Shown here: positions 196 to 10,593 of the stretch, in pieces
Layout: each line of letters opens with the position of its first letter
Numbering within the stretch: the stretch's first letter is position 1
Source: a virus
Virus genome (UHGV): UHGV-0266384
Direction: 5' to 3' (one strand)
DNA length: 10,593 nt
Position numbers and translations under genes: made by a program
Notes under the pieces: generated by a model
Told to the model about the DNA's origin: nothing
What the model saw: only the letters and a program-made list of their open reading frames with translations
Database searches by the model: none

Positions 196-272
196 CGGCA
201 CGTAGCGCAGCCTGGTAGCGCACCGTCATGGGGTGTCGGGGGTCGGAGGTTCAAATCCTCTCGTGCCGACCA
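196..272 (+). tRNA. proL: tRNA-Pro, anticodon GGG, with encoded CCA end
   Basis: 77-nt cloverleaf read by hand: acceptor CGGCACG/CGTGCCG, D-arm GCGC-AGCCTGGTA-GCGC, anticodon loop AUGGGGU (anticodon GGG), T-arm GGAGG-TTCAAAT-CCTCT, then ACCA. Matches my memory of E. coli proL. Confidence 0.9.
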
Positions 273-1809: not shown

Positions 1810-2061
1810 GTGAAACATGAAACCGTTAAGATGCAAAAAAATATCAGATGCAATTGCGACGGGCTGCAACTGGCCCTGATGGTTCAGCATGAATTTTGGT
1901 CAACCTACGATCCGGAGGACAGGACGACGGCCCCATCAAAAAAACAGGTAGTAGATTTTCTGGTATCCCGTGGCGCTTCCAGAAATCTGGCGGTAAGTAT
2001 TGATAAGGTCGTACGTCCGGCATCTATGAAGATCGGAGGCAGGCCCAAAAAATGGCGGTAA
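1810..2061 (+). CDS. Hypothetical small basic protein (83 aa from GTG 1810; alternative ATG start at 1831)
   Basis: ORF followed 11 nt later by a strong intrinsic terminator. I do not recognise a family; the C-terminus GGRPKKWR is AT-hook-like. The start codon is uncertain and the Shine-Dalgarno is weak. Confidence 0.4.
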   Translation: MKHETVKMQKNIRCNCDGLQLALMVQHEFWSTYDPEDRTTAPSKKQVVDFLVSRGASRNLAVSIDKVVRPASMKIGGRPKKWR

Positions 2062-2228: not shown

Positions 2229-2435
2229 ATGGAAGCAATCAGAAAAATTATCTTTCGCCAGGAAGTAAAAAAAATTATCCACATCAAGGCAGACAGCACG
2301 CTGCAAAGCATGATCAACGCCGGAGAATTTCCGCAGGGTTTTCGCGTTGGTTTACGCCGTCGCGGATGGTATGAGGATGATGTGTTGGCCTGGCAGAAAG
2401 AACGCGAACAGGAAGCACGCGGAACGGCTGCTTAA
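2229..2435 (+). CDS. alpA: AlpA-family phage transcriptional regulator / excisionase-like (MerR-type HTH)
   Basis: 68 aa. The stretch RQEVKKIIHIKADSTLQSMINAGEFPQGFRVGLRRRGWYEDDVLAW fits the AlpA pattern (helix ... GEFP ... G.R...W...V..W) as I remember it from CP4-57 AlpA. The int - small ORF - alpA order is typical of P4-like islands and PICIs. Confidence 0.8.
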   Translation: MEAIRKIIFRQEVKKIIHIKADSTLQSMINAGEFPQGFRVGLRRRGWYEDDVLAWQKEREQEARGTAA

Positions 2436-2583
2436 CGGGTATCACAGATATGACAAACACGAAAAAAGCGGCCCCGATATGGAGCCGTCTTTCTGAACAG
2501 ATAACCCGCTGCGCTGTTTGTGTGTGTGATCCCAAACATAAGCACGGGGATGATAGCCGCTATCAGGCTGGTGGGCAATGCAA

Positions 2584-2760
2584 TCAGTCTGGTTCAGTTC
2601 GTTGCCATAACTGCGAAGCTCTCTCCTTTGATGAGTATTCTTTAAGGTACTTCTCAAGGGCAAAAGAACACGGCGCGAATCGTTCTGATTCATGCTCTTT
2701 CTTTCTGCGTCGTCTTTTTCGTGCAGGTGATGTTTTTTCGGTTGATTCTTCGTTGGTCAT
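2584..2760 (-). CDS. Hypothetical small basic protein (58 aa), below the ORF-track length cutoff
   Basis: Hand translation of the minus strand: MTNEESTEKTSPARKRRRRKKEHESERFAPCSFALEKYLKEYSSKERASQLWQRTEPD. It is in the same frame as the RHH ORF at 2818-2997 and separated from it only by one TAA and 19 sense codons. Shine-Dalgarno is weak. Confidence 0.3.
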   Translation of the reverse strand: MTNEESTEKTSPARKRRRRKKEHESERFAPCSFALEKYLKEYSSKERASQLWQRTEPD

Positions 2761-2817
2761 TGTGTGCGCCTGTAAAGCAATGCGCCGGAGTACCTCACAC
2801 CACGGCGCTGATAGTTT

Positions 2818-2997
2818 TTATCCTTTGGGTTCTATGCCGCGTTGCTGTAATTCTTTGCGGATTATTCGCTTTATCCAGGCAGCAAGAGAATCATCGCCGT
2901 CCTGTTGTTGTGCCTTTTCCATCTTTTCCCGTAAGTCAGGATCTAAACGGAACTGGAACGGAGGATTACCACGCCTTTCGTTTTTGTGTGTTGACAC
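2818..2997 (-). CDS. Ribbon-helix-helix (Arc/CopG-like) small DNA-binding protein, 59 aa, candidate repressor of the divergent switch
   Basis: Hand translation of the minus strand from GTG (SD GAGGTG 8 nt upstream): MSTHKNERRGNPPFQFRLDPDLREKMEKAQQQDGDDSLAAWIKRIIRKELQQRGIEPKG. The pattern of a beta-strand with alternating hydrophobics (FQFRL), then helix, then Gly-containing turn, then helix is that of Arc-family RHH proteins. Missing from the ORF track only because it is under 60 aa. Confidence 0.55.
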   Translation of the reverse strand: MSTHKNERRGNPPFQFRLDPDLREKMEKAQQQDGDDSLAAWIKRIIRKELQQRGIEPKG

Positions 2998-3046
2998 GTT
3001 AATTACACCTCATGTAATGTATTTATGTGTAATGACACATTACACA
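2991..3046 (+). promoter_or_regulatory. Early rightward promoter with operator palindromes
   Basis: Perfect -35 TTGACA (2991-2996), 16-bp spacer, -10 TGTAAT (3013-3018). A 21-bp perfect palindrome TGTGTAATG-ACA-CATTACACA (3026-3046) lies just downstream, with a third TGTAATG half-site at 3013-3019 overlapping the -10. The -35 overlaps the start codon of the minus-strand RHH ORF. Confidence 0.6.
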
Positions 3047-3126
3047 CAATCAACACAAAAAGCAAAGCCCCGCACTGTAGGAGCAGTAACGGGGCTTCTA
3101 ACCAACAACGTAAACTAGGAGCCGTT

Positions 3127-3324
3127 ATGGTTGCCGTAAATCATATACCACACCTTGTACACACACAAACGGCCTTTGTGTGGCGTTTTCTGGCACTGAG
3201 TGCCGGAGAATCTCAAATCATCCACGTAACCGCCTGGACGGAACGCGAAGCGCGTAGCCGTTGCCCGTCCGGTTGTGTTGCTGTATTCGCCGCCCGTATT
3301 CGTCAGGGGTCACATCATGCGTAA
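3127..3324 (+). CDS. Icd-like small protein (host cell-division inhibitor family), 65 aa
   Basis: Strong SD AGGAG 6 nt upstream of ATG 3127 (the track's longer 3025 start lacks an SD). Motifs FVWRFLALS ... TEREAR ... FAARIRQG resemble the P1 Icd / P4-like Icd-like family as I recall it. A paralogous C-terminus is repeated in the next gene. Confidence 0.5.
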   Translation: MVAVNHIPHLVHTQTAFVWRFLALSAGESQIIHVTAWTEREARSRCPSGCVAVFAARIRQGSHHA

Positions 3325-3781
3325 AAACCGCTTGCAAAAAATTATCACGGGGCTGTATGCTTCCCCCGTCGCCCACATGGCGACCGGGTTTGACAGCCTG
3401 AATACATCTGGCGGACAGCCGCCCACATCCGATAAGCGGTTTTTTTGTGTCCGTAAACCTACCCATACCCGCATTATGGCGGGGCGTAACGGGGGAGCCT
3501 TTGTGCTCGCTGGTTTCCAGATGACCAGTCTGTCAACCCTGTTACGTCTCGCCACCATGTTTGACAGCGTAGTAGCGAGACTCCTTAAAATTCATCTGGG
3601 AGCCTTTCACATGGCTGTATCCGCACGCCCTTATTTTGTCTGGCGCTTTATGCAGTGCCTGACAGACAGTATTGCAATATTCACCGTTACCGCTGCCACT
3701 GAGCGCGAAGCACGTGCACAGCTGCCGCACGCACATCTTATTTTTGTCGCCCGTATTCGCCAGGGGGGGAGTCATGCATAA
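3317..3781 (+). CDS. Ash-like / Icd-like protein (154 aa), or alternatively only the C-terminal 56-aa Icd-like paralog starting at ATG 3611
   Basis: ATG 3317 overlaps the previous stop (ATGCGTAA) with SD AGGGG upstream. The C-terminal 56 aa (YFVWRFMQCL ... TEREARAQ ... FVARIRQGG) are paralogous to the gene at 3127-3324 and have their own SD (GGGAG) and ATG at 3611. The N-terminal 98 codons overlap a repeat-rich, hairpin-rich region, so their coding status is uncertain. Confidence 0.45.
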   Translation: MRKNRLQKIITGLYASPVAHMATGFDSLNTSGGQPPTSDKRFFCVRKPTHTRIMAGRNGGAFVLAGFQMTSLSTLLRLATMFDSVVARLLKIHLGAFHMAVSARPYFVWRFMQCLTDSIAIFTVTAATEREARAQLPHAHLIFVARIRQGGSHA

Positions 3782-4006: not shown

Positions 4007-4306
4007 ATGAAAAATAAAAATTCTGGCGTTACTGCCAGCGGCCCCGCTCGTCCTGAATTTATGAACGGCGATATTTACCGCGATAAATATGGCGGCATGG
4101 TAACGATTAAAGGCGTGGCAGAACGGCGCATCACCTACCGTCGTGAAGGCTACGAATATGATTGCGTGATGCCTGTTTATCAGTTTCGGCGTGATTTTTC
4201 TCTGGTACAGGCAGCGCCCCGCAGTAAACCAACCAGCAGGGAGAAAGCACGCGCCAATATTCAGGAAATAAAAAAGATGCTTAACGTATTCAGGGGTAAA
4301 AAATGA
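4007..4306 (+). CDS. Hypothetical small protein (99 aa), translationally coupled to the primase; possibly DUF4222-like
   Basis: SD GGAGA upstream of ATG 4007; the stop overlaps the primase start (ATGA). The motif YRDKYGGMVTIKGV...RRITYRREGYEYDCVMPVYQFRRDF reminds me of a small prophage DUF family, but I cannot confirm it. Confidence 0.55.
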   Translation: MKNKNSGVTASGPARPEFMNGDIYRDKYGGMVTIKGVAERRITYRREGYEYDCVMPVYQFRRDFSLVQAAPRSKPTSREKARANIQEIKKMLNVFRGKK

Positions 4307-6051
4307 AACTGGCACCGAACGTAAAAAAACAGCCACGCGGAATAAAACACAAAGACACAGAGGTAATTATTTTCGCGGGTAGTGATGCCTGGTCGCACGC
4401 GAAACAATGGCAGGAGCAGGATGGCCCCGCATCCGGCGATAATGTGCCGCCTGTGTGGCTTGGGCCAAATCAGCTTGCCGAACTTGATGCACTGAAAATT
4501 GTTCCGGATGGGAAAAAGCGCGTAAGGCTGTACCAGGCCGGAGAACTGGATTTGGTGGAGACCAAAAAGATTGGTCAGAAGCTGGCGGCGGCAGATATTC
4601 AGGACGCAAATTTTTACCCCGAAGGAATGCACGTCCAGAAGTGTGAAAACTGGCGGCGCTATCTGAATGCTGAGCGTGAAAATATTGCCGCAGGGCTTAC
4701 CATGCCGGAGCAGAAAAATACGCAACTGGCACAAATGGCAGACAGTGAGCGCGCGCAGCTGCTTGCCGAGCGCTTTGATGGCGTTTGTGTGCATCCGGAA
4801 AGTGAAATCGTTCACGTATGGCGCGGCGGGGTATGGTGTCCGGTCAGCACAATGGAACTTAGCCGCGAAATGGTGGCGATCTATTCAGAGCACAGGGCCA
4901 CTTTCAGCAAGCGCGTAATCAATAACGCCGTGGAGGCGTTAAAAGTTATTGCCGAACCAATGGGCGAGCCGTCCGGCGATTTGCTGCCGTTCGCCAATGG
5001 TGCGCTTGACCTGAAAACGGGGGAATTTTCCCCGCACACGCCGGAGAACTGGATCACCACGCACAACGGCATTGAGTACACGCCACCAGCACCAGGGGAG
5101 AATATCTGCGACAACGCGCCAAACTTTCATAAATGGCTTGAGCACGCAGCCGGAAAAGACCCGCGCAAGATGATGCGTATATGTGCCGCGCTGTACATGA
5201 TTATGGCGAACCGGTACGACTGGCAGATGTTTATTGAGGCCACCGGAGACGGCGGGAGCGGCAAAAGTACATTCACCCACATCGCCAGCCTTTTAGCGGG
5301 GAAACAAAACACGGTAAGCGCGGAAATGACATCGCTTGATGATGCTGGTGGGCGTGCGCAGGTTGTCGGGAGTCGTCTTATCGTCCTGGCAGACCAGCCG
5401 AAATATACAGGCGAAGGCACGGGCATCAAGAAAATCACGGGCGGCGACCCCGTGGAAATCAACCCGAAATATGAAAAGCGTTTCACTACGGTAATCAGGG
5501 CGGTGGTGCTGGCGACCAATAACAACCCGATGATATTCACCGAACGGGCCGGAGGCGTGTCACGTCGTCGGGTTATTTTCCGCTTCGACAATATCGTAAG
5601 CGAGGCAGAAAAAGACAGGGAGCTACCGGAAAAGATCGCGGCTGAAATCCCTGTCATTATCCGCCGCTTGCTGGCGAACTTTACCGACCCTGAGAAGGCA
5701 CGGGCTTTACTACTGGAACAGCGTGACGGTGATGAAGCTCTGGCAATAAAGCAACAGACGGATCCGGTTATTGAGTTTTGCCAGTTCCTGAATTTTCTGG
5801 AGGAAGCACGCGGCCTGATGATGGGCGGCGGTGGCGATTCAGTGAAGTACACAACCAGAAACAGCCTTTACCGCGTCTATCTGGCGTTTATGGCATACGC
5901 AGGCAGGAGCAAACCGCTAAACGTGGCTGAGTTCAGCAAGGCCATGAAGCCAGCGGCAAAAGTTTACGGACATGAATATATTACGCGGAGAGTTAAGGGA
6001 GTAACGCAGACCAACGCAATTACAACTGATGATTGTGACGCGTTTTTATAA
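4303..6051 (+). CDS. Primase-helicase, P4 alpha / D5-like SF3 helicase (the PICI pri-rep equivalent)
   Basis: 582 aa. SF3 helicase motifs are present: Walker A GDGGSGKST (about nt 5245-5271), motif B RLIVLAD, motif C VVLATNNNP. It is immediately followed by an iteron array, as expected for a replication initiator. Confidence 0.85.
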   Translation: MKLAPNVKKQPRGIKHKDTEVIIFAGSDAWSHAKQWQEQDGPASGDNVPPVWLGPNQLAELDALKIVPDGKKRVRLYQAGELDLVETKKIGQKLAAADIQDANFYPEGMHVQKCENWRRYLNAERENIAAGLTMPEQKNTQLAQMADSERAQLLAERFDGVCVHPESEIVHVWRGGVWCPVSTMELSREMVAIYSEHRATFSKRVINNAVEALKVIAEPMGEPSGDLLPFANGALDLKTGEFSPHTPENWITTHNGIEYTPPAPGENICDNAPNFHKWLEHAAGKDPRKMMRICAALYMIMANRYDWQMFIEATGDGGSGKSTFTHIASLLAGKQNTVSAEMTSLDDAGGRAQVVGSRLIVLADQPKYTGEGTGIKKITGGDPVEINPKYEKRFTTVIRAVVLATNNNPMIFTERAGGVSRRRVIFRFDNIVSEAEKDRELPEKIAAEIPVIIRRLLANFTDPEKARALLLEQRDGDEALAIKQQTDPVIEFCQFLNFLEEARGLMMGGGGDSVKYTTRNSLYRVYLAFMAYAGRSKPLNVAEFSKAMKPAAKVYGHEYITRRVKGVTQTNAITTDDCDAFL

Positions 6052-7546: not shown

Positions 7547-7753
7547 ATGGCTGAAGAGAAAAAAGGCGGTGTTTCGGTGTACATAAGCCCCGACATCGTG
7601 AAGGCGCTCAAGGAACGCCACCAGCAGAACGTAAAAGCAGGCATTGCGGCAGGACTTGATCCGCTGGCGATGGTTGAGCCGTCAACAGGCTGGCAGGTAC
7701 GCGCCTATTTACGCGCGGCGCTGGGTATGAATCAGGTTCACGGGGGTGAATAA
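7547..7753 (+). CDS. Hypothetical small protein (68 aa), first gene of the capsid operon
   Basis: SD AGAGGA 9 nt upstream of the ATG; the stop overlaps the major capsid start by 1 nt (TAATG). No family recognised; position suggests a scaffold or assembly role. Confidence 0.55.
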   Translation: MAEEKKGGVSVYISPDIVKALKERHQQNVKAGIAAGLDPLAMVEPSTGWQVRAYLRAALGMNQVHGGE

Positions 7754-8808
7754 TGACAGTAAAAGCAATATCACTTAACACTAACCAGCTTTTTGCGTAC
7801 CTGAATCGCGAGGATATTGCGGAATTTAAATTCAGTCCGCTGTTTACCGCGCTGTTTTTCCCGAACGTGGCGACATTCAACACACAGGACATCATGTTAG
7901 ATAACCTGGATATTGAAGAAGTCACTATGTCGGCGTTTTGTTCGCCTATGGTGGGTAGCCAGGTTCAGCGCGATAAAGGGTACGAAACAAGCATTATTCG
8001 CCCTGGCTACATGAAGCCAAAACACGAAATCGATCCATTAAAAACAATAATGCGCATGGCTGGAGAAGATCCAGCACAGCTTAACGACCCTACCTACCGC
8101 CGTATGCGCCTGATTACTGGCAACATGCGCCGCCAGATAAACGCCATTAAAGCGCGCGTGGAATGGCTGGCGGTAAATGCGGTAACGACCGGAAAAAACA
8201 TCATTGAGGGCGAAGGCATAGAGCGCTATGAAATCGACTGGAAGATACCGGAAAAAAACATCATAGAGCAGGCCGACGGTAAAAAATGGTCAGAGCAGGA
8301 CAAAGACATACACGACCCAATCTATGACATTGAGCTATACGCAGATCAGGCAGGTTGCCCCGCAAACGTCATGATTATGGGCGTTGATGTATGGCGCATG
8401 TTACGCAGCTTTAAAAAATTCCGTGAACTGTACGATCTCTCCCGTGGTTCAGAATCCGCCGCAGAGCTGGCATGTAAAAACCTGGGAGAAGTGGTGAGCT
8501 TTAAAGGCTATCTTGGTGATCTGGCCCTTATCGTCTATTCCGGCAAATACACTGACAGCGACGGCACAGAAAAATATTTCCTTGAGCCTGATTTGCTGGT
8601 CCTGGGCAACACCAACAATAAAGGGCTGGTGGCCTATGGTGCGATTATGGAACAGGAAGCGGTAAGAACGGGCGCAACGCAAAACATGTTTTACCCGAAA
8701 AACTGGATTGAAGACGGCGATCCGGCGATTGAGTACGTGCAGACACACAGCGCACCGCAGCCTGTTCCGGCAGATATTCGCAAATTTGTTACCGTCAAAA
8801 TTGGTTAA
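7753..8808 (+). CDS. Major capsid protein, lambda gpE family
   Basis: 351 aa with multiple blocks matching lambda gpE from memory: EFKFSPLF (KFKFDPLF), RPGYMKPKHEIDP (TPGYVKPKHEVNP), DPTYRRMRLITGNMR (DPAYRRRRIIMQNMR), LGDLALIVYSGKY (YGDVAIVVYSGQY), YPKNWIEDGDPAIEY (YPKNWVTTGDPAREF), C-terminal KFVTVKIG (EFVSVQLA). Confidence 0.88.
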   Translation: MTVKAISLNTNQLFAYLNREDIAEFKFSPLFTALFFPNVATFNTQDIMLDNLDIEEVTMSAFCSPMVGSQVQRDKGYETSIIRPGYMKPKHEIDPLKTIMRMAGEDPAQLNDPTYRRMRLITGNMRRQINAIKARVEWLAVNAVTTGKNIIEGEGIERYEIDWKIPEKNIIEQADGKKWSEQDKDIHDPIYDIELYADQAGCPANVMIMGVDVWRMLRSFKKFRELYDLSRGSESAAELACKNLGEVVSFKGYLGDLALIVYSGKYTDSDGTEKYFLEPDLLVLGNTNNKGLVAYGAIMEQEAVRTGATQNMFYPKNWIEDGDPAIEYVQTHSAPQPVPADIRKFVTVKIG

Positions 8809-8819
8809 CGGTGGATTCT

Positions 8820-9155
8820 ATGAACACTCCATACATTGAGTTATTTGCAGGCAGTCAGCAGGTATCAACGACGCTGGTACATTTTGCCGCTGATGCTGGC
8901 GTTATTCAGGAATTTACCCCGCTGATGCTGGCGGACAATGGCGAGTTTAAGCCGTGGGATGGTCAGGAATCTGGCAAGGCTGTTTATCTGACCTCGTACC
9001 CCGTTGACACGTCGACGCAGAAATCAGCACAGTGCTATAAGACGGGGATATTCAATATCGCCGCCGTTAACTGGCCTGAGAGCGTCGACACCGATGCGAA
9101 AAAATGCGCCGCCTTTGCGGGTTCTGGCGTATCCGTTCAGCCGCTGGCCCGATAA
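8820..9155 (+). CDS. Head decoration protein, lambda gpD family
   Basis: 111 aa from ATG 8820 (the track's GTG 8811 is in the same frame). TPLMLADNGEFKPWDG matches lambda gpD TPLMLDTSSRKLVAWDG; YKTGIF...WPE...DAKKCAAFAGSGVSV matches gpD YKSGTF...WPE...ETKKRTAFAGTAISIV. Confidence 0.75.
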   Translation: MNTPYIELFAGSQQVSTTLVHFAADAGVIQEFTPLMLADNGEFKPWDGQESGKAVYLTSYPVDTSTQKSAQCYKTGIFNIAAVNWPESVDTDAKKCAAFAGSGVSVQPLAR

Positions 9156-9167
9156 GCAGGGGGAACG

Positions 9168-9581
9168 ATGGCAACGAATGAAAGCATCATGGCGCTACCG
9201 CTGGCGAGTAAATTTAAAGCCGAAGCGCGGGCAATGGCTGACAGAGGGTTATCAACCTACGAGGCCGTATATCAACTCAACAAACTGGAAGAACAGGACA
9301 AGCCGCGCGCTGATGCGATTATGGCGCTTCATGAACATAACGACTATCAGCCGCTGTTACGTGCAATGGCAAACGTGCCATGTATTAGCGTCGATAATGC
9401 TCGTGAAATCCTGAACATGACCATAGAGCAGGAGCGCCCAAAGGTTGCACCAGAGCTTACCGCAGCCTTTGAAAACTTTATGGACATGCACAGCCCGCAA
9501 GCCGTATCAGCTGGCATGGCATACGATGGCAGAAACCAGGGCGATGACGGCGACATCGATCACATACTGAAAACCATCTGA
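9168..9581 (+). CDS. Hypothetical protein (137 aa), last gene before cos; possibly packaging- or head-related
   Basis: Strong SD GGGGGA upstream of the ATG; followed by a strong terminator. No family recognised and no clear match to lambda FI or FII. Confidence 0.6.
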   Translation: MATNESIMALPLASKFKAEARAMADRGLSTYEAVYQLNKLEEQDKPRADAIMALHEHNDYQPLLRAMANVPCISVDNAREILNMTIEQERPKVAPELTAAFENFMDMHSPQAVSAGMAYDGRNQGDDGDIDHILKTI

Positions 9582-9587
9582 GACAAG

Positions 9588-9611
9588 GCCGGAGAAATCC
9601 GGCTTTTTTTT
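9588..9611 (+). terminator. Rho-independent terminator of the capsid operon
   Basis: GCCGGA-GAAA-TCCGGC followed by eight T residues. Confidence 0.85.
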
Positions 9612-9830
9612 ACGGGTCCTTTCCGGCATATGGACCCGTTACGGGGCGGCGACCTCGCGCGTTTTCACTATTTATGAAAATTTTCCGGGATCCATGTCCG
9701 GTTTCTCTGCAAGTTAACCATATGAAAAATATAAAAACATGCTTTCTATGAACCGGACATGCGCAAAAAACAGACACTAAAACCGGACATCGTACCCGTT
9801 AACCGGAAGTGTGCAAAAATCACACGCATT
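9609..9830 (+). other. Lambda-type cos site, copy 1: cosQ-like, cosN, and cosB with R-like repeats
   Basis: TTACGGGTCCTTTCCGG ... GTTACGGGGCGGCGACCTCGCG ... GTTTTC(A)CTATTTATGAAAATTTTCCGG is near-identical to the lambda cos junction as I remember it. The 12-nt cohesive end GGGCGGCGACCT is at 9644-9655. Downstream there are three or four AACCGGACAT(G/C)-type repeats in both orientations (9691-9826), consistent with terminase small-subunit binding sites. Confidence 0.8.
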
Positions 9831-10099
9831 GCTGCGCGTGATTAACAATTTATCGGCTTTACTGTTCTGTATAGGCTGGGTGGCGTCATGCCGTAGCCGT
9901 TCTCCGTGCCAGCATGGAATAATCCGTAGTTACAGAGCGGTAAAGTTAAAAATCACTTTCTGTTACGCCATCAAATACGCGATACAACAACCATGTGTTT
10001 TTACAAAACCATTTGATATCATTGAATTTTTTCACATTAATGACATCAAAATACATCGTAAGGTTGTTGTATTTATTTTATTTTTACCTTACTTATCAA

Positions 10100-10213
10100 T
10101 TAGATATACCAAACAATTAAACAACAACCACCCCCTCAAAAAATCTCATAAATAGCGAAAAACCGCGAGGTCGCCGCCCCGTAACGGGCCATAATTCCAG
10201 GAAGGACCCGACG
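10100..10213 (-). other. Second lambda-type cos site (copy 2) in inverted orientation, with a divergent cosB-side flank
   Basis: The reverse complement reads CGGGTCCTTCCTGG ... CCCGTTACGGGGCGGCGACCTCGCGG TTTTTCGCTATTTATGAGATTTT. cosN is identical to copy 1 over 25 bp (10164-10188 against 9635-9659), with the GGGCGGCGACCT complement at 10168-10179. The flank beyond TATTTATGA differs (GAGGGGGTGGTTGTTGTTTAATTG...). Confidence 0.75.
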
Positions 10214-10243
10214 ACACCAGACTATCAGAGCGATGGGGGCACA

Positions 10244-10525
10244 ATGACAGAAGCCGAACTACTGGGATTAATCCGCCGCGTTACCGGAATCAGCCAGCAG
10301 CATGACGAACAGGCCACACAGCCGGACAGCGTGACCGCTGAAAATTATGTGCGTGTTGTTGCTGAGGTGATGCGCCGTGATGGTATAGAACTTAATGGCG
10401 TGGATATGCGCAACATACGAACCAGAGTTCTTGAGTTGCTGGCCTACCGTCGCCGCGTGGAGATGTATCGGGAGAAGGAGAAAATAACGTACCACTGGAA
10501 GAAGCCGGAACGACTGCGTACGTAA
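10244..10525 (+). CDS. Hypothetical protein (93 aa) immediately distal to the cos region
   Basis: SD GGGGG upstream of ATG 10244; the stop is embedded in a 17-bp perfect palindrome CGTACGTA-A-TACGTACG (10517-10533). No family recognised. Its position next to cos suggests a packaging-related role, but this is not supported by sequence. Confidence 0.5.
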   Translation: MTEAELLGLIRRVTGISQQHDEQATQPDSVTAENYVRVVAEVMRRDGIELNGVDMRNIRTRVLELLAYRRRVEMYREKEKITYHWKKPERLRT

Positions 10526-10593
10526 TACGTACGGACATCGAGATAAAGACGGTTTAACCATCCATTAAAAATCAACGTGATTTTGTGCTTTCC

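What the first reader, a model, noticed from the sequence alone, without database searches (positions are those of the whole stretch)
2584..3046. Divergent genetic switch: a minus-strand RHH ORF missing from the ORF track, whose start codon overlaps the -35 of the rightward early promoter, plus a 21-bp operator palindrome
Seen in sequence: the minus strand encodes a 59-aa ORF with an Arc-like ribbon-helix-helix pattern (2997-2818). It is followed in the same frame, after a single TAA, by a 58-aa basic ORF (2760-2584). Both are just under the 60-aa cutoff, whereas the plus strand shows a 222-codon Cys/Ser/Arg-rich open frame (2450-3118) that looks like an antisense shadow. The RHH start overlaps the perfect TTGACA of the rightward promoter, and the operator palindrome TGTGTAATG-ACA-CATTACACA with an extra half-site sits over the -10 and +1 region. 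Inference: this is the lysogeny-type repressor module of the island; the in-frame TAA may mark a recently split gene or two co-evolved small regulators.
Basis: partly seen in the sequence, partly recalled or inferred. Interest (0 to 1): 0.55.

Follow-up and report, generated by a model that had tools for sequence, protein, structure and literature searches.

The report
Arc-like repressor switch in a phage satellite
A small, conserved but unstudied DNA-binding protein gene sits on top of two head-on promoters at the control point of a phage-parasitising island, and is a good candidate for the repressor that Gram-negative islands of this kind were thought to lack.

Summary
The minus strand encodes a 59-aa protein (2997-2818) that is under purifying selection. 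It belongs to a family of about 59-aa proteins spread across Enterobacterales, Orbaceae and Pasteurellaceae, and it has an Arc-type ribbon-helix-helix pattern. Its start codon overlaps a perfect TTGACA. That hexamer is conserved at the same place in 69 of 78 related loci and is followed after 17-18 nt by TAnnnT. The 21-bp palindrome is the only one of its class in the window. It is one of four GTGTAATG half-sites, and the site sequence changes with the residues of the protein's beta-strand.

Three points need correction:
- The two small ORFs are not a split gene. orf58 is an Escherichia-only add-on.
- The two promoters face each other, with start sites about 3 bp apart. A conserved terminator for leftward transcription abuts them.
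- The plus-strand 222-codon frame is not just a shadow. It is kept open from alpA to the Icd-like gene in every island examined, even through the non-coding switch, as with P4 eta.

The host element is a Gram-negative PICI that also carries C4 antisense RNA immunity. Binding and repression by the protein are inferred, not shown.

The parts
2818..2997 (-). 59-aa Arc-like ribbon-helix-helix (RHH) protein gene, GTG start
3005..3010 (-). Shine-Dalgarno GAGGTG of the RHH gene, 8 nt before the GTG
   Evidence: Read directly from the sequence.
2584..2760 (-). orf58: small basic protein, second gene of the leftward operon, lineage-restricted
   Evidence: 24 clusters, all Escherichia/Shigella. PHROG 21027, E = 2e-12. 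Conserved core EHESERFAPCxFxLE. Substitutions at positions 1/2/3 = 784/549/1004. It also follows other RHH alleles.
2460..2494 (-). intrinsic terminator of the leftward RHH-orf58 operon (weaker on the plus strand)
   Evidence: Terminator scan. Fold -17.3 kcal/mol, z = -3.4, followed by UUUUUU.
2991..2996 (+). -35 (TTGACA) of the rightward early promoter P_right, inside RHH codons 1-3
   Evidence: A TTGACA-like -35 at this position (exact TTGACA in all but three loci), paired with a TAnnnT -10, in 69 of 78 unique loci across all RHH subfamilies.
3015..3020 (+). -10 (TAATGT, 18-nt spacer) of P_right; predicted start about 3027
   Evidence: TTGACA, 17-18 nt, TAnnnT in 69 of 78 loci.
3001..3019 (.). 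proximal operator: two half-sites with one mismatch each (3001-3008, 3012-3019), centres 11 bp apart, over the P_right spacer and -10
   Evidence: Conserved as ATTACA-N5-TGTAAT in related loci.
3026..3046 (.). distal operator: perfect 21-bp palindrome with two GTGTAATG half-sites 11 bp apart, covering both predicted start sites and the P_left -10
   Evidence: The position is conserved, and the sequence changes with the RHH beta-strand class.
3037..3042 (-). -10 (TAATGT) of the leftward RHH promoter P_left; predicted start about 3030
   Evidence: TTGnnn, 17-18 nt, TAnnnT found in 70 of 78 loci, in nearly all of them at the same position, although the spacer sequence varies.
3060..3065 (-). -35 (TTGCTT) of P_left, embedded in the U-tract of the upstream terminator
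3053..3098 (-). conserved intrinsic terminator for leftward transcription (stem-loop 3064-3098, U-tract 3053-3063)
   Evidence: Terminator scan. Fold z = -3.3. Consensus fold -16.9 on the minus strand against -4.6 on the plus strand. 121 G-U cells on minus would be C-A on plus; compensatory changes are present.
3140..3168 (-). candidate promoter (TTGTGT, 17 nt, TATGAT) of a roughly 78-nt antisense RNA covering the icd1 ribosome-binding site and ATG
   Evidence: A minus-strand TAnnnT lies at ATG+13 to +18 in most loci. 28 of the promoter-like pairs that scored at least 8 of 12 place their -10 at that offset. Inferred, not shown.
2450..3118 (+). eta-like read-through ORF: starts 14 nt after alpA and ends 8 nt before the icd1 ATG; antisense to orf58 and RHH with coincident wobble positions
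   Evidence: One stop in this frame against 11 and 18 in the others. Open over the RHH gene in 57 of 77 loci against 30.4 expected. The switch region has 0.86 stops against 3.7 and 2.0. Open from alpA to icd in 11 of 11 E. coli islands. No protein-family hit.
2229..2435 (+). alpA (AlpA/HTH_17-type regulator)
   Evidence: Pfam match below the cutoff. PGAP calls it a 'helix-turn-helix transcriptional regulator'.
3127..3324 (+). first Icd-like gene, first cistron of the rightward operon
   Evidence: NCBIfam phage_ICD_like, E = 5.8e-18.
3355..3404 (+). c4-a1b1 target motif
   Evidence: Rfam RF03163, 46.8 bits, above the gathering score.
3472..3559 (+). C4 antisense immunity RNA
   Evidence: Rfam RF01695, 72.6 bits, E = 5e-13.
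3590..3781 (+). second Icd-like gene (the long form from 3275 spans the C4 unit)
   Evidence: NCBIfam, E = 2.2e-14. PGAP annotates the long form.

Best explanation
The region is the control switch of a Gram-negative phage-inducible chromosomal island (PICI).

Shown from sequence and comparison:
- A 59-aa Arc-type RHH protein is made from a short leftward operon: P_left, RHH, orf58, terminator.
- P_left and the rightward early promoter P_right face each other. P_right drives Icd-like 1, C4 RNA, Icd-like 2, DUF4222 and primase. The two -10 hexamers are the arms of an inverted repeat, the predicted start sites are about 3 bp apart, and the P_right -35 lies in RHH codons 1-3.
- Four RHH half-sites form two operators, each with centres 11 bp apart. 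One lies over the P_right spacer and -10. The other (the 21-bp palindrome) lies over both start sites and the P_left -10.

Inferred:
- RHH dimers bind each operator as a dimer of dimers, as Arc does.
- Binding shuts P_right, which keeps the replication operon silent, and limits the protein's own synthesis.
- RNA polymerase at one promoter excludes it from the other, so the state tends to lock in.
- A conserved terminator ends a leftward transcript just upstream of P_left. This is probably a short antisense RNA against the Icd-like translation start.
- C4 RNA adds a third layer of control downstream.
- On helper-phage induction, AlpA-driven transcription reads through from alpA. It is kept translated by the open plus-strand frame, as with P4 eta, and runs antisense across the RHH operon into the early genes. 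It thereby bypasses the repressor and silences it.
For: Gene reality and fold.

Promoters: P_right in 69 of 78 unique loci and P_left in 70 of 78, in nearly all at fixed positions, with variable spacer sequence (sequences).

Operators: clustered half-sites and a unique palindrome. Palindromes are conserved in position and switch with the beta-strand class:
- GNPPFQFRL goes with TGTAAT..ATTACA.
- SPQYQMRL/SPPFQMRL goes with ATGGTAATTACCAT.
- TDQYQIRL goes with TTGTAATTACAA.
- GNKQIALRV goes with CAAGTGTATGACA.

Terminators.

Rightward operon content.

Read-through frame. The P4 eta precedent is summarised in PMC10111431.

Context: AlpA is the known activator of these islands, and no repressor is known for them (PMC6092414).
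Against: - No experiment shows binding, repression or the transcription start sites.
- The -10 hexamers are weak matches (TAATGT), and the generic promoter scan did not call either promoter.
- TTGACA conservation is confounded with the conserved Met/Val-Ser-Thr N-terminus.
- The loci are related by descent, so counts overstate independence.
- The perfect operator lies over P_left rather than the P_right core, so the main effect could be autoregulation.
Confidence: 0.68

Rival explanations
1. The plus-strand 222-codon ORF is the only real gene (an Eta/Bro-network or long Icd-like protein). The two minus-strand ORFs are its antisense shadows.
For: PGAP annotates this plus frame as an 'Icd-like' pseudogene in some genomes. 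The frame is conserved open. In many loci it is in frame with the Icd-like gene.
Against: The substitution pattern is position 3 >> 1 > 2 in the minus frame. That would be 3 >> 2 > 1 in the plus frame. Amino-acid identity is 83.6% on minus against 69.8% on plus. RHH length, start, Shine-Dalgarno and stop are conserved even in the roughly 20 loci where the plus frame is closed. The RHH has remote homology and fold matches, while the plus ORF has none. The plus product is rich in Ser, Arg and Cys.
Confidence: 0.04
2. The RHH protein is the antitoxin of a type II toxin-antitoxin pair, with orf58 as the toxin. The palindrome is the usual antitoxin autoregulation site. There is no role in island control.
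For: Order is RHH first, then a small basic protein, with an autoregulatory palindrome. Weak HMM hits to VapB and HicB. JGI labels some homologues 'HicB family'. Similar genes in satellites are listed as HicB in PMC13612085.
Against: orf58 is absent from 78 of 80 loci that keep the RHH and the switch. Genes downstream of the RHH vary or are missing. orf58 matches no toxin family. The RHH is always tied to the Icd-like promoter, not to a partner gene.
Confidence: 0.05
3. The RHH protein only regulates itself, or a function unrelated to the early operon. P_right is controlled only by the RNA layers (C4, antisense RNA) and by AlpA read-through, as in P4 where PLE is constitutive.
For: The perfect palindrome overlaps the P_left -10 and lies downstream of the P_right start. 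P4 works with a constitutive early promoter plus RNA immunity (PMC10111431). C4 and its targets are present.
Against: The second operator lies in the P_right spacer and -10 in every subfamily. An operator at +1 to +20 normally also blocks initiation. Face-to-face geometry couples the two promoters.
Confidence: 0.15
4. The plus-strand open frame is a by-product, not a translated eta-like ORF. It would arise from codon periodicity of the minus genes plus chance and shared ancestry in the switch. The simple picture of convergent alpA and RHH units separated by a terminator is then complete.
For: The wobble-coincident antisense phase is the one most prone to shadow ORFs. A terminator-like hairpin lies at codons 7-13 of the ORF. 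The plus frame is closed in about 20 of 77 loci. There is no protein-level conservation.
Against: Openness exceeds the synonymous-resampling expectation, 57 against 30.4. It holds in the non-coding 112-nt switch across operator families with different sequences: 0.86 stops against 3.7 and 2.0. It holds in 11 of 11 E. coli islands with three unrelated RHH alleles. The frame ends right at, or in frame with, the Icd-like start.
Confidence: 0.4

Closest known systems
Phage P22 immI region (Mnt and Arc RHH repressors, Pant/Pmnt, sar antisense RNA)
   Same: A small RHH repressor is transcribed opposite to the operon it controls. A roughly 21-bp symmetric operator overlaps the promoters. A short antisense RNA is directed at a translation start in the controlled operon. 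P22 roles are as summarised in PMC11016777; operator size and Arc dimer-of-dimers binding are from my own knowledge.
   Different: - No detectable sequence membership in the Arc or Mnt Pfam families.
- One repressor here rather than two.
- The controlled operon starts with an Icd-like gene and leads to a primase, not to an antirepressor.
- The element is a satellite, not a phage.
- The antisense RNA is only predicted here.
Phage P1/P7 immI (c4 antisense RNA, icd, ant)
   Same: A C4 RNA and its a1/b1 target motif score above the Rfam gathering thresholds, next to Icd-like genes.
   Different: There is no ant gene in the window. There are two Icd-like genes. The upstream protein regulator is an RHH at a face-to-face promoter pair rather than the P1 C1 repressor (the P1 part is from my own knowledge).
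Satellite phage P4 left operon (vis, nested eta/kil, PLL/PLE, CI RNA)
   Same: An AlpA/Vis-type gene is followed by a long ORF. That ORF starts upstream of the early promoter and runs across it and the immunity RNA region into a short killing/Icd-like gene. Translation of that ORF is what lets upstream-initiated transcripts read through (PMC10111431).
   Different: P4 has no homologue of the RHH protein, and its early promoter is described as constitutive. Here a protein-coding gene lies antisense inside the eta-like frame.
Stl/Rpr master repressors of Gram-positive PICIs (SaPIs)
   Same: A repressor gene is transcribed opposite to the excision/replication operon at the same map position, between int and the replication module (PMC6092414).
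   Different: Stl proteins are larger helix-turn-helix proteins that are inactivated by helper proteins. Nothing here indicates how the RHH would be relieved other than by AlpA-driven read-through. There is no sequence relationship.
YlcI/YnfO (DUF3950) prophage proteins of E. coli K-12
   Same: Alleles at the same position in other E. coli islands are named YlcI/YnfO family by PGAP. The window protein hits NF041551 at E = 5e-4, and 9 of 36 homologues hit DUF3950.
   Different: The window protein is below the curated cutoff. YlcI/YnfO themselves have no known function that I could find.

Membership tests
Arc/MetJ ribbon-helix-helix superfamily | N-terminal beta-strand with alternating polar and hydrophobic residues, followed by two helices joined by a Gly-containing turn | tested here: met
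   PPFQFRL, then helix 20-33, then the invariant D33-G34-D35 turn, then helix 38-52. hhalign aligns F14/F16/L18 with the Arc core residues F10/L12/W14, and P13/Q15/R17 with the Arc DNA-contact residues Q9/N11/R13. R17 is invariant.
Arc/MetJ ribbon-helix-helix superfamily | Significant match to a curated RHH profile | tested here: inconclusive
   PHROG 228 'Arc-like repressor' gives E = 2e-6 and matches 33 of 36 members. Pfam shows no Arc or RHH_1 hit; the best are RHH_7 at 0.033 and HicB at 0.054 in a few members. The PDB sequence search is empty. hhalign probability to Arc is only 12%.
Arc/MetJ ribbon-helix-helix superfamily | Three-dimensional similarity to solved RHH proteins | tested here: inconclusive
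Arc/MetJ ribbon-helix-helix superfamily | Obligate dimer that inserts a two-stranded sheet into the major groove | not testable with these tools
It needs biochemistry or AlphaFold-Multimer.
Repressor-operator switch of the P22 Mnt/Arc type | Cognate symmetric operator overlapping the promoters | tested here: met
   Two operators of two half-sites each, 11 bp centre to centre, lie over the -10 and +1 elements. The operator sequence changes with the beta-strand class of the protein.
Repressor-operator switch of the P22 Mnt/Arc type | The protein represses the opposing promoter | not testable with these tools
   Needs reporter fusions or in vitro transcription.
P1/P7-type C4 antisense immunity | C4 RNA and its target motif next to an icd gene | tested here: met
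   RF01695 at 72.6 bits and RF03163 at 46.8 bits, both at or above the gathering score. Icd-like NF033153 hits.
P4 eta/kil nested-gene arrangement | A long ORF starts just after the vis/alpA gene, spans the early promoter, and ends at or in frame with the short Icd/Kil-like gene | tested here: met
   2450-3118 starts 14 nt after alpA and ends 8 nt before the icd1 ATG. The same holds in 11 of 11 E. coli islands, in frame with Icd in 5, and in many other genera.
P4 eta/kil nested-gene arrangement | Translation of the long ORF prevents premature termination of upstream-initiated transcripts | not testable with these tools
   Only the selective signature of an open frame is available.
Gram-negative PICI | int, alpA, dynamic/immunity zone, primase replication zone and late zone, co-oriented and next to a tRNA gene | tested here: met
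   tRNA-Pro 196-272. int 473-1732; alpA; Icd and C4; primase 4303-6051; SSB; lambda E-like capsid, D-like decoration and scaffold genes. This matches the four-zone scheme of PMC10111431. Helper dependence was not tested.
Type II toxin-antitoxin module | A conserved adjacent toxin partner | tested here: not met
   orf58 is present in 2 of 80 loci. Downstream genes are variable or absent.

The most novel reading that the evidence does not exclude
The 59-aa RHH protein is the missing master repressor of a large class of Gram-negative PICIs and P4-like satellites. It forms a true antisense-overlapping coding pair with an eta-like read-through ORF. AlpA-activated, ribosome-protected transcription runs antisense through the repressor gene and its promoter to flip the switch. 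Control would then be three-layered: protein repressor, cis-antisense RNA and C4 RNA.
Probability: 0.25. Interest if true: 0.8.

Novelty: new variant of a known kind. Interest (0 to 1): 0.6.

Why it matters

This small gene is annotated as hypothetical, as YlcI/YnfO, or as 'HicB', or it is not annotated at all. Homologous DNA is found in roughly a quarter to a third of complete E. coli genomes. The gene also occurs across Enterobacterales, Orbaceae and Pasteurellaceae. It always sits on the promoter of the Icd-like/replication operon.

If it is the repressor, three things follow:
- It gives a direct handle on how these satellites stay silent and how helper phages wake them.
- It offers a compact set of natural repressor/operator pairs with different specificities.
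- The conserved open frame antisense to it would be a clear, testable bacterial case of both DNA strands being read through the same stretch.

Tried and rejected
- Pfam, NCBIfam and PDB sequence searches of the RHH gave nothing above the curated thresholds.
- The plus-strand 222-aa product hit no family in Pfam, PHROGs or NCBIfam.
- Split-gene idea: I looked for fused proteins of about 138 aa. The long homologues are N-terminal extensions, unrelated C-terminal fusions or frameshift variants, never RHH joined to orf58.
- Toxin-antitoxin idea: rejected for lack of a conserved partner.
- P4 was checked for an RHH homologue: none.
- Known RNA for the 3064-3098 hairpin: Rfam at relaxed thresholds gave only chance-level hits. 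The idea that it is a plus-strand leader structure was rejected on G-U against C-A asymmetry.
- The generic promoter scan called neither switch promoter, because it needs 9 of 12 matches. I relied on positional conservation instead.
- An att repeat of the tRNA end was not found in the right part of the window.
- The AFDB fold library was unavailable.
- A dimer or single-chain model could not be submitted under the tool's input rules.
Full report
**What is at the coordinates**

- A GTG-initiated 59-aa ORF lies on the minus strand (2997-2818).
- A 58-aa basic ORF lies in the same frame after one TAA (2760-2584).
- A 222-codon ATG ORF lies on the plus strand (2450-3118).
- A perfect TTGACA (2991-2996) overlaps the minus-strand start codon.
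- The palindrome TGTGTAATG-ACA-CATTACACA lies at 3026-3046.
- A good Shine-Dalgarno (GAGGTG) lies 8 nt upstream of the GTG.

The palindrome is the only one of its class in the window. Such a repeat turns up in 22% of shuffled windows, so alone it proves little. What matters is the clustering: four of the window's six GTGTAATG-like half-sites lie within 3001-3045. Near-identical E. coli islands have both small ORFs annotated by PGAP as hypothetical proteins.

**The host element**

The window is a Gram-negative phage-inducible chromosomal island (PICI) next to tRNA-Pro. In order it carries:
- int and alpA;
- the switch region;
- two Icd-like genes that flank a C4 antisense RNA and its a1/b1 target motif, both above the Rfam gathering scores;
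- DUF4222, a P4-alpha-type primase, SSB and a PerC-like activator;
- lambda E-like capsid, D-like decoration and scaffold genes.

This is the four-zone layout (Integration, Bro/immunity, Replication, Late) described for such islands. That description already notes C4/isrK hits and captured capsid genes (PMC10111431).

**The minus-strand 59-aa gene is real and RHH-like**

- 117 homologue clusters were found, nearly all 55-60 aa. They come from Enterobacterales, Orbaceae and Pasteurellaceae, and all are unnamed or 'hypothetical'.
- In 25 unique close homologues, pairwise differences fall 3396/1546/8706 on codon positions 1/2/3 of the minus frame.
- The antisense plus frame has coincident wobble positions, and its positions 1 and 2 map to minus positions 2 and 1. 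So the usual 3 >> 1 > 2 order identifies the minus frame as the one under selection. Amino-acid identity is 83.6% in the minus frame against 69.8% antisense.
- The sequence reads strand (PPFQFRL), helix, invariant DGD turn, helix.
- PHROG 228 'Arc-like repressor' matches 33 of 36 members.
- hhalign puts P13/Q15/R17 on the three DNA-contacting residues of Arc (Q9/N11/R13), and F14/F16/L18 on its core residues.
- Curated Pfam and NCBIfam cutoffs are not reached. I therefore file it as RHH-like by pattern and remote homology, not as a member of the Arc family proper.

**Not a split gene, not a toxin-antitoxin pair**

- orf58 is confined to Escherichia/Shigella (24 clusters). It is found in only 2 of 80 loci that carry the RHH.
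- No RHH-orf58 fusion exists among the hits.
- orf58 shows a weak but correctly ordered substitution pattern (784/549/1004) and a conserved core.
- It also follows different RHH alleles, the 59-aa and 101-aa 'YlcI/YnfO family' proteins, in other E. coli islands. It is probably a real, lineage-specific second cistron.
- Elsewhere the RHH is followed by nothing, by a second RHH paralogue, or by a small lipoprotein-like ORF.

**The switch region is conserved and has a defined architecture**

I aligned the region upstream of the RHH gene from 78 unique loci. It shows the following.
- *P_right.* TTGACA lies at a fixed place over RHH codons 1-3, then 17-18 nt, then TAnnnT, in 69 of 78 loci. In the window this is TTGACA 2991-2996 and TAATGT 3015-3020, with a start near 3027.
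- *P_left.* A leftward promoter of TTGnnn, 17-18 nt, TAnnnT is found in 70 of 78 loci, in nearly all at a fixed place, although the spacer sequence varies. In the window this is TTGCTT 3065-3060 and TAATGT 3042-3037, with a start near 3030.
- *Geometry.* The two -10 hexamers are the arms of inverted repeat I15. The promoters therefore face each other with start sites about 3 bp apart, and each must be transcribed across the other. This follows from the geometry alone: the P_right -35 sits on the RHH start codon, so the RHH mRNA has to begin inside P_right.
- *Operators.* Two operators, each with two half-sites 11 bp apart, sit on the P_right spacer and -10 (3001-3019) and on both start sites plus the P_left -10 (3026-3046).
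- *Covariation.* The operator sequence changes with the beta-strand of the protein, as listed here.

| RHH beta-strand class | Operator sequence |
|---|---|
| GNPPFQFRL | TGTAAT..ATTACA |
| SPQYQMRL / SPPFQMRL | ATGGTAATTACCAT |
| TDQYQIRL | TTGTAATTACAA |
| GNKQIALRV | CAAGTGTATGACA |

This covariation is the best available evidence that the protein recognises these sites.

**Two terminators**

- The GC-rich hairpin at 3064-3098 is conserved in all subfamilies with compensatory changes. It folds far better on the minus strand: consensus energy -16.9 against -4.6. There are 121 G-U cells on minus that would be C-A mismatches on plus. It is followed by a U-tract on that strand.
- It is therefore a terminator for leftward transcription, placed just upstream of P_left. 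Its tail supplies the P_left -35.
- A minus-strand TAnnnT lies at a fixed offset (ATG+13 to +18) inside the first rightward gene in most loci, even where the encoded peptide differs. This suggests a promoter for an antisense RNA of about 78 nt covering the Icd-like ribosome-binding site and start codon. That part is inference.
- A second terminator at 2460-2494 ends the RHH-orf58 operon.

**The plus-strand frame is more than a shadow**

- Over the RHH gene the plus frame is stop-free in 57 of 77 unique loci. Resampling of synonymous codons predicts 30.4.
- In the 112-nt switch region, where no minus-strand gene can cast a shadow, this frame averages 0.86 stops. The other two frames average 3.7 and 2.0. 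The difference holds within operator families of different sequence.
- In 11 of 11 E. coli islands, carrying three unrelated RHH alleles, the frame is open from the end of alpA (or a BRO-N gene) to the Icd-like start. It ends within 20 nt of that start, or runs in frame with it. The same is seen in many other genera.
- In the window it has one stop over 2436-3126, against 11 and 18 in the other plus frames.
- There is no protein-level conservation and no family hit.
- This is the signature expected of a frame that must be translated but whose product does not matter. It matches P4 eta. That ORF starts after the alpA homologue vis, spans the early promoter and the immunity RNA, is nested with kil, and its translation lets upstream-initiated transcripts escape termination (PMC10111431).
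- P4 itself has no RHH homologue.
- Caveats: the loci are related by descent, the frame is closed in about 20 loci, and translation is untested.

**How it most likely works**

Shown from sequence and comparison:
- the gene;
- its RHH-like character;
- the two conserved promoters and their geometry;
- the operators and their covariation with the protein;
- the two terminators;
- the content of the rightward operon.

Inferred:
- RHH dimers bind each operator as a dimer of dimers, as Arc does on its 21-bp operator (my own knowledge).
- Binding closes P_right and limits P_left.
- The face-to-face promoters make the two states mutually exclusive.
- An antisense RNA and C4 RNA add post-transcriptional locks on the two Icd-like genes.
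- On helper induction, AlpA-dependent transcription reads through the open frame, antisense to the RHH operon, into the early genes. AlpA is the known activator of these islands (PMC6092414).

**Comparison with known systems**

- *P22 immI* is the closest functional analogue. It has the RHH repressors Mnt and Arc, an antirepressor operon and the sar antisense RNA (PMC11016777).
- *P1/P7 immI* shares the RNA layer: c4 and icd.
- *P4* shares the read-through ORF.
- *Stl of Gram-positive PICIs* shares the position in the element.

No paper I could find assigns a function to this gene. Satellite surveys list such genes only as 'HicB' or 'YlcI/YnfO' accessory genes. The key PICI paper states that a global repressor in Gram-negative elements is unclear.

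**Verdict**

It is a new variant of a known kind of switch, built around an uncharacterised but very widespread small protein. Interest is 0.6.

Noticed in passing
window 3275-3781: The C4 antisense RNA (3472-3559) and its a1/b1 target motif (3355-3404) lie inside the long form of the second Icd-like ORF, which PGAP annotates as one CDS. This repeats the 'regulatory RNA nested in an ORF' design of P4 eta/CI.
   Followed up: partly
window 7753-9581: The late zone encodes a lambda E-like major capsid protein, a D-like decoration protein, and a protein similar to the C-terminus of the head protease/scaffold. No portal or terminase is present. The island resembles the capsid-bearing PICI Eco567.11capE.
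   Followed up: partly
window 196-272 and 9600-10200: tRNA-Pro(GGG) sits immediately left of int. An AT-rich, gene-poor stretch lies near the right end. No repeat of at least 12 nt from the tRNA end was found in 9400-10593, so the right island boundary was not located.
   Followed up: partly
window 3140-3168 (-) and the same offset in loci L002-L081: A minus-strand -10-like TAnnnT is conserved at ATG+13 to +18 of the first rightward gene, whatever peptide is encoded. It is a candidate promoter of an antisense RNA of about 78 nt that would end at the 3064-3098 terminator.
   Followed up: partly
L041, L043, L047 (about 3180-3360) and L065: Some loci carry a second, diverged RHH paralogue directly downstream of the first, 4 to 109 nt after its stop. 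The window has orf58 at that position.
   Followed up: no
L004, L008, L017, L048, L051 (just downstream of the RHH stop): A 47-53 aa ORF with a signal/lipoprotein-like N-terminus and two conserved Cys residues follows the RHH gene. It starts 4 nt after the RHH stop in four loci and 22 nt after it in L051.
   Followed up: no
L030:3001-3010: This Citrobacter copy has a stop at RHH codon 2. The protein may start at the internal Met (MNERRGNPPF...), which would move the start off the TTGACA (here TTTACA).
   Followed up: no
E. coli loci L001, L082, L083, L085-L091: RefSeq annotation of this homologous region is inconsistent between genomes. It appears as two minus-strand hypothetical proteins, as a 'YlcI/YnfO family protein', as a plus-strand 'Icd-like' or 'ash family' pseudogene, or as nothing.
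   Followed up: yes
window 1810-2061: An 83-aa ORF between int and alpA has no family match. It is conserved and annotated as hypothetical in related E. coli islands.
   Followed up: no
window 2981-3001 and 3022-3042: A 21-nt direct repeat (81% identity, 41 bp apart) links the -35/start-codon region to the left half of the palindrome. It may be a third, degenerate site, or a by-product of the GTGT/ACAC-rich operators.
   Followed up: no
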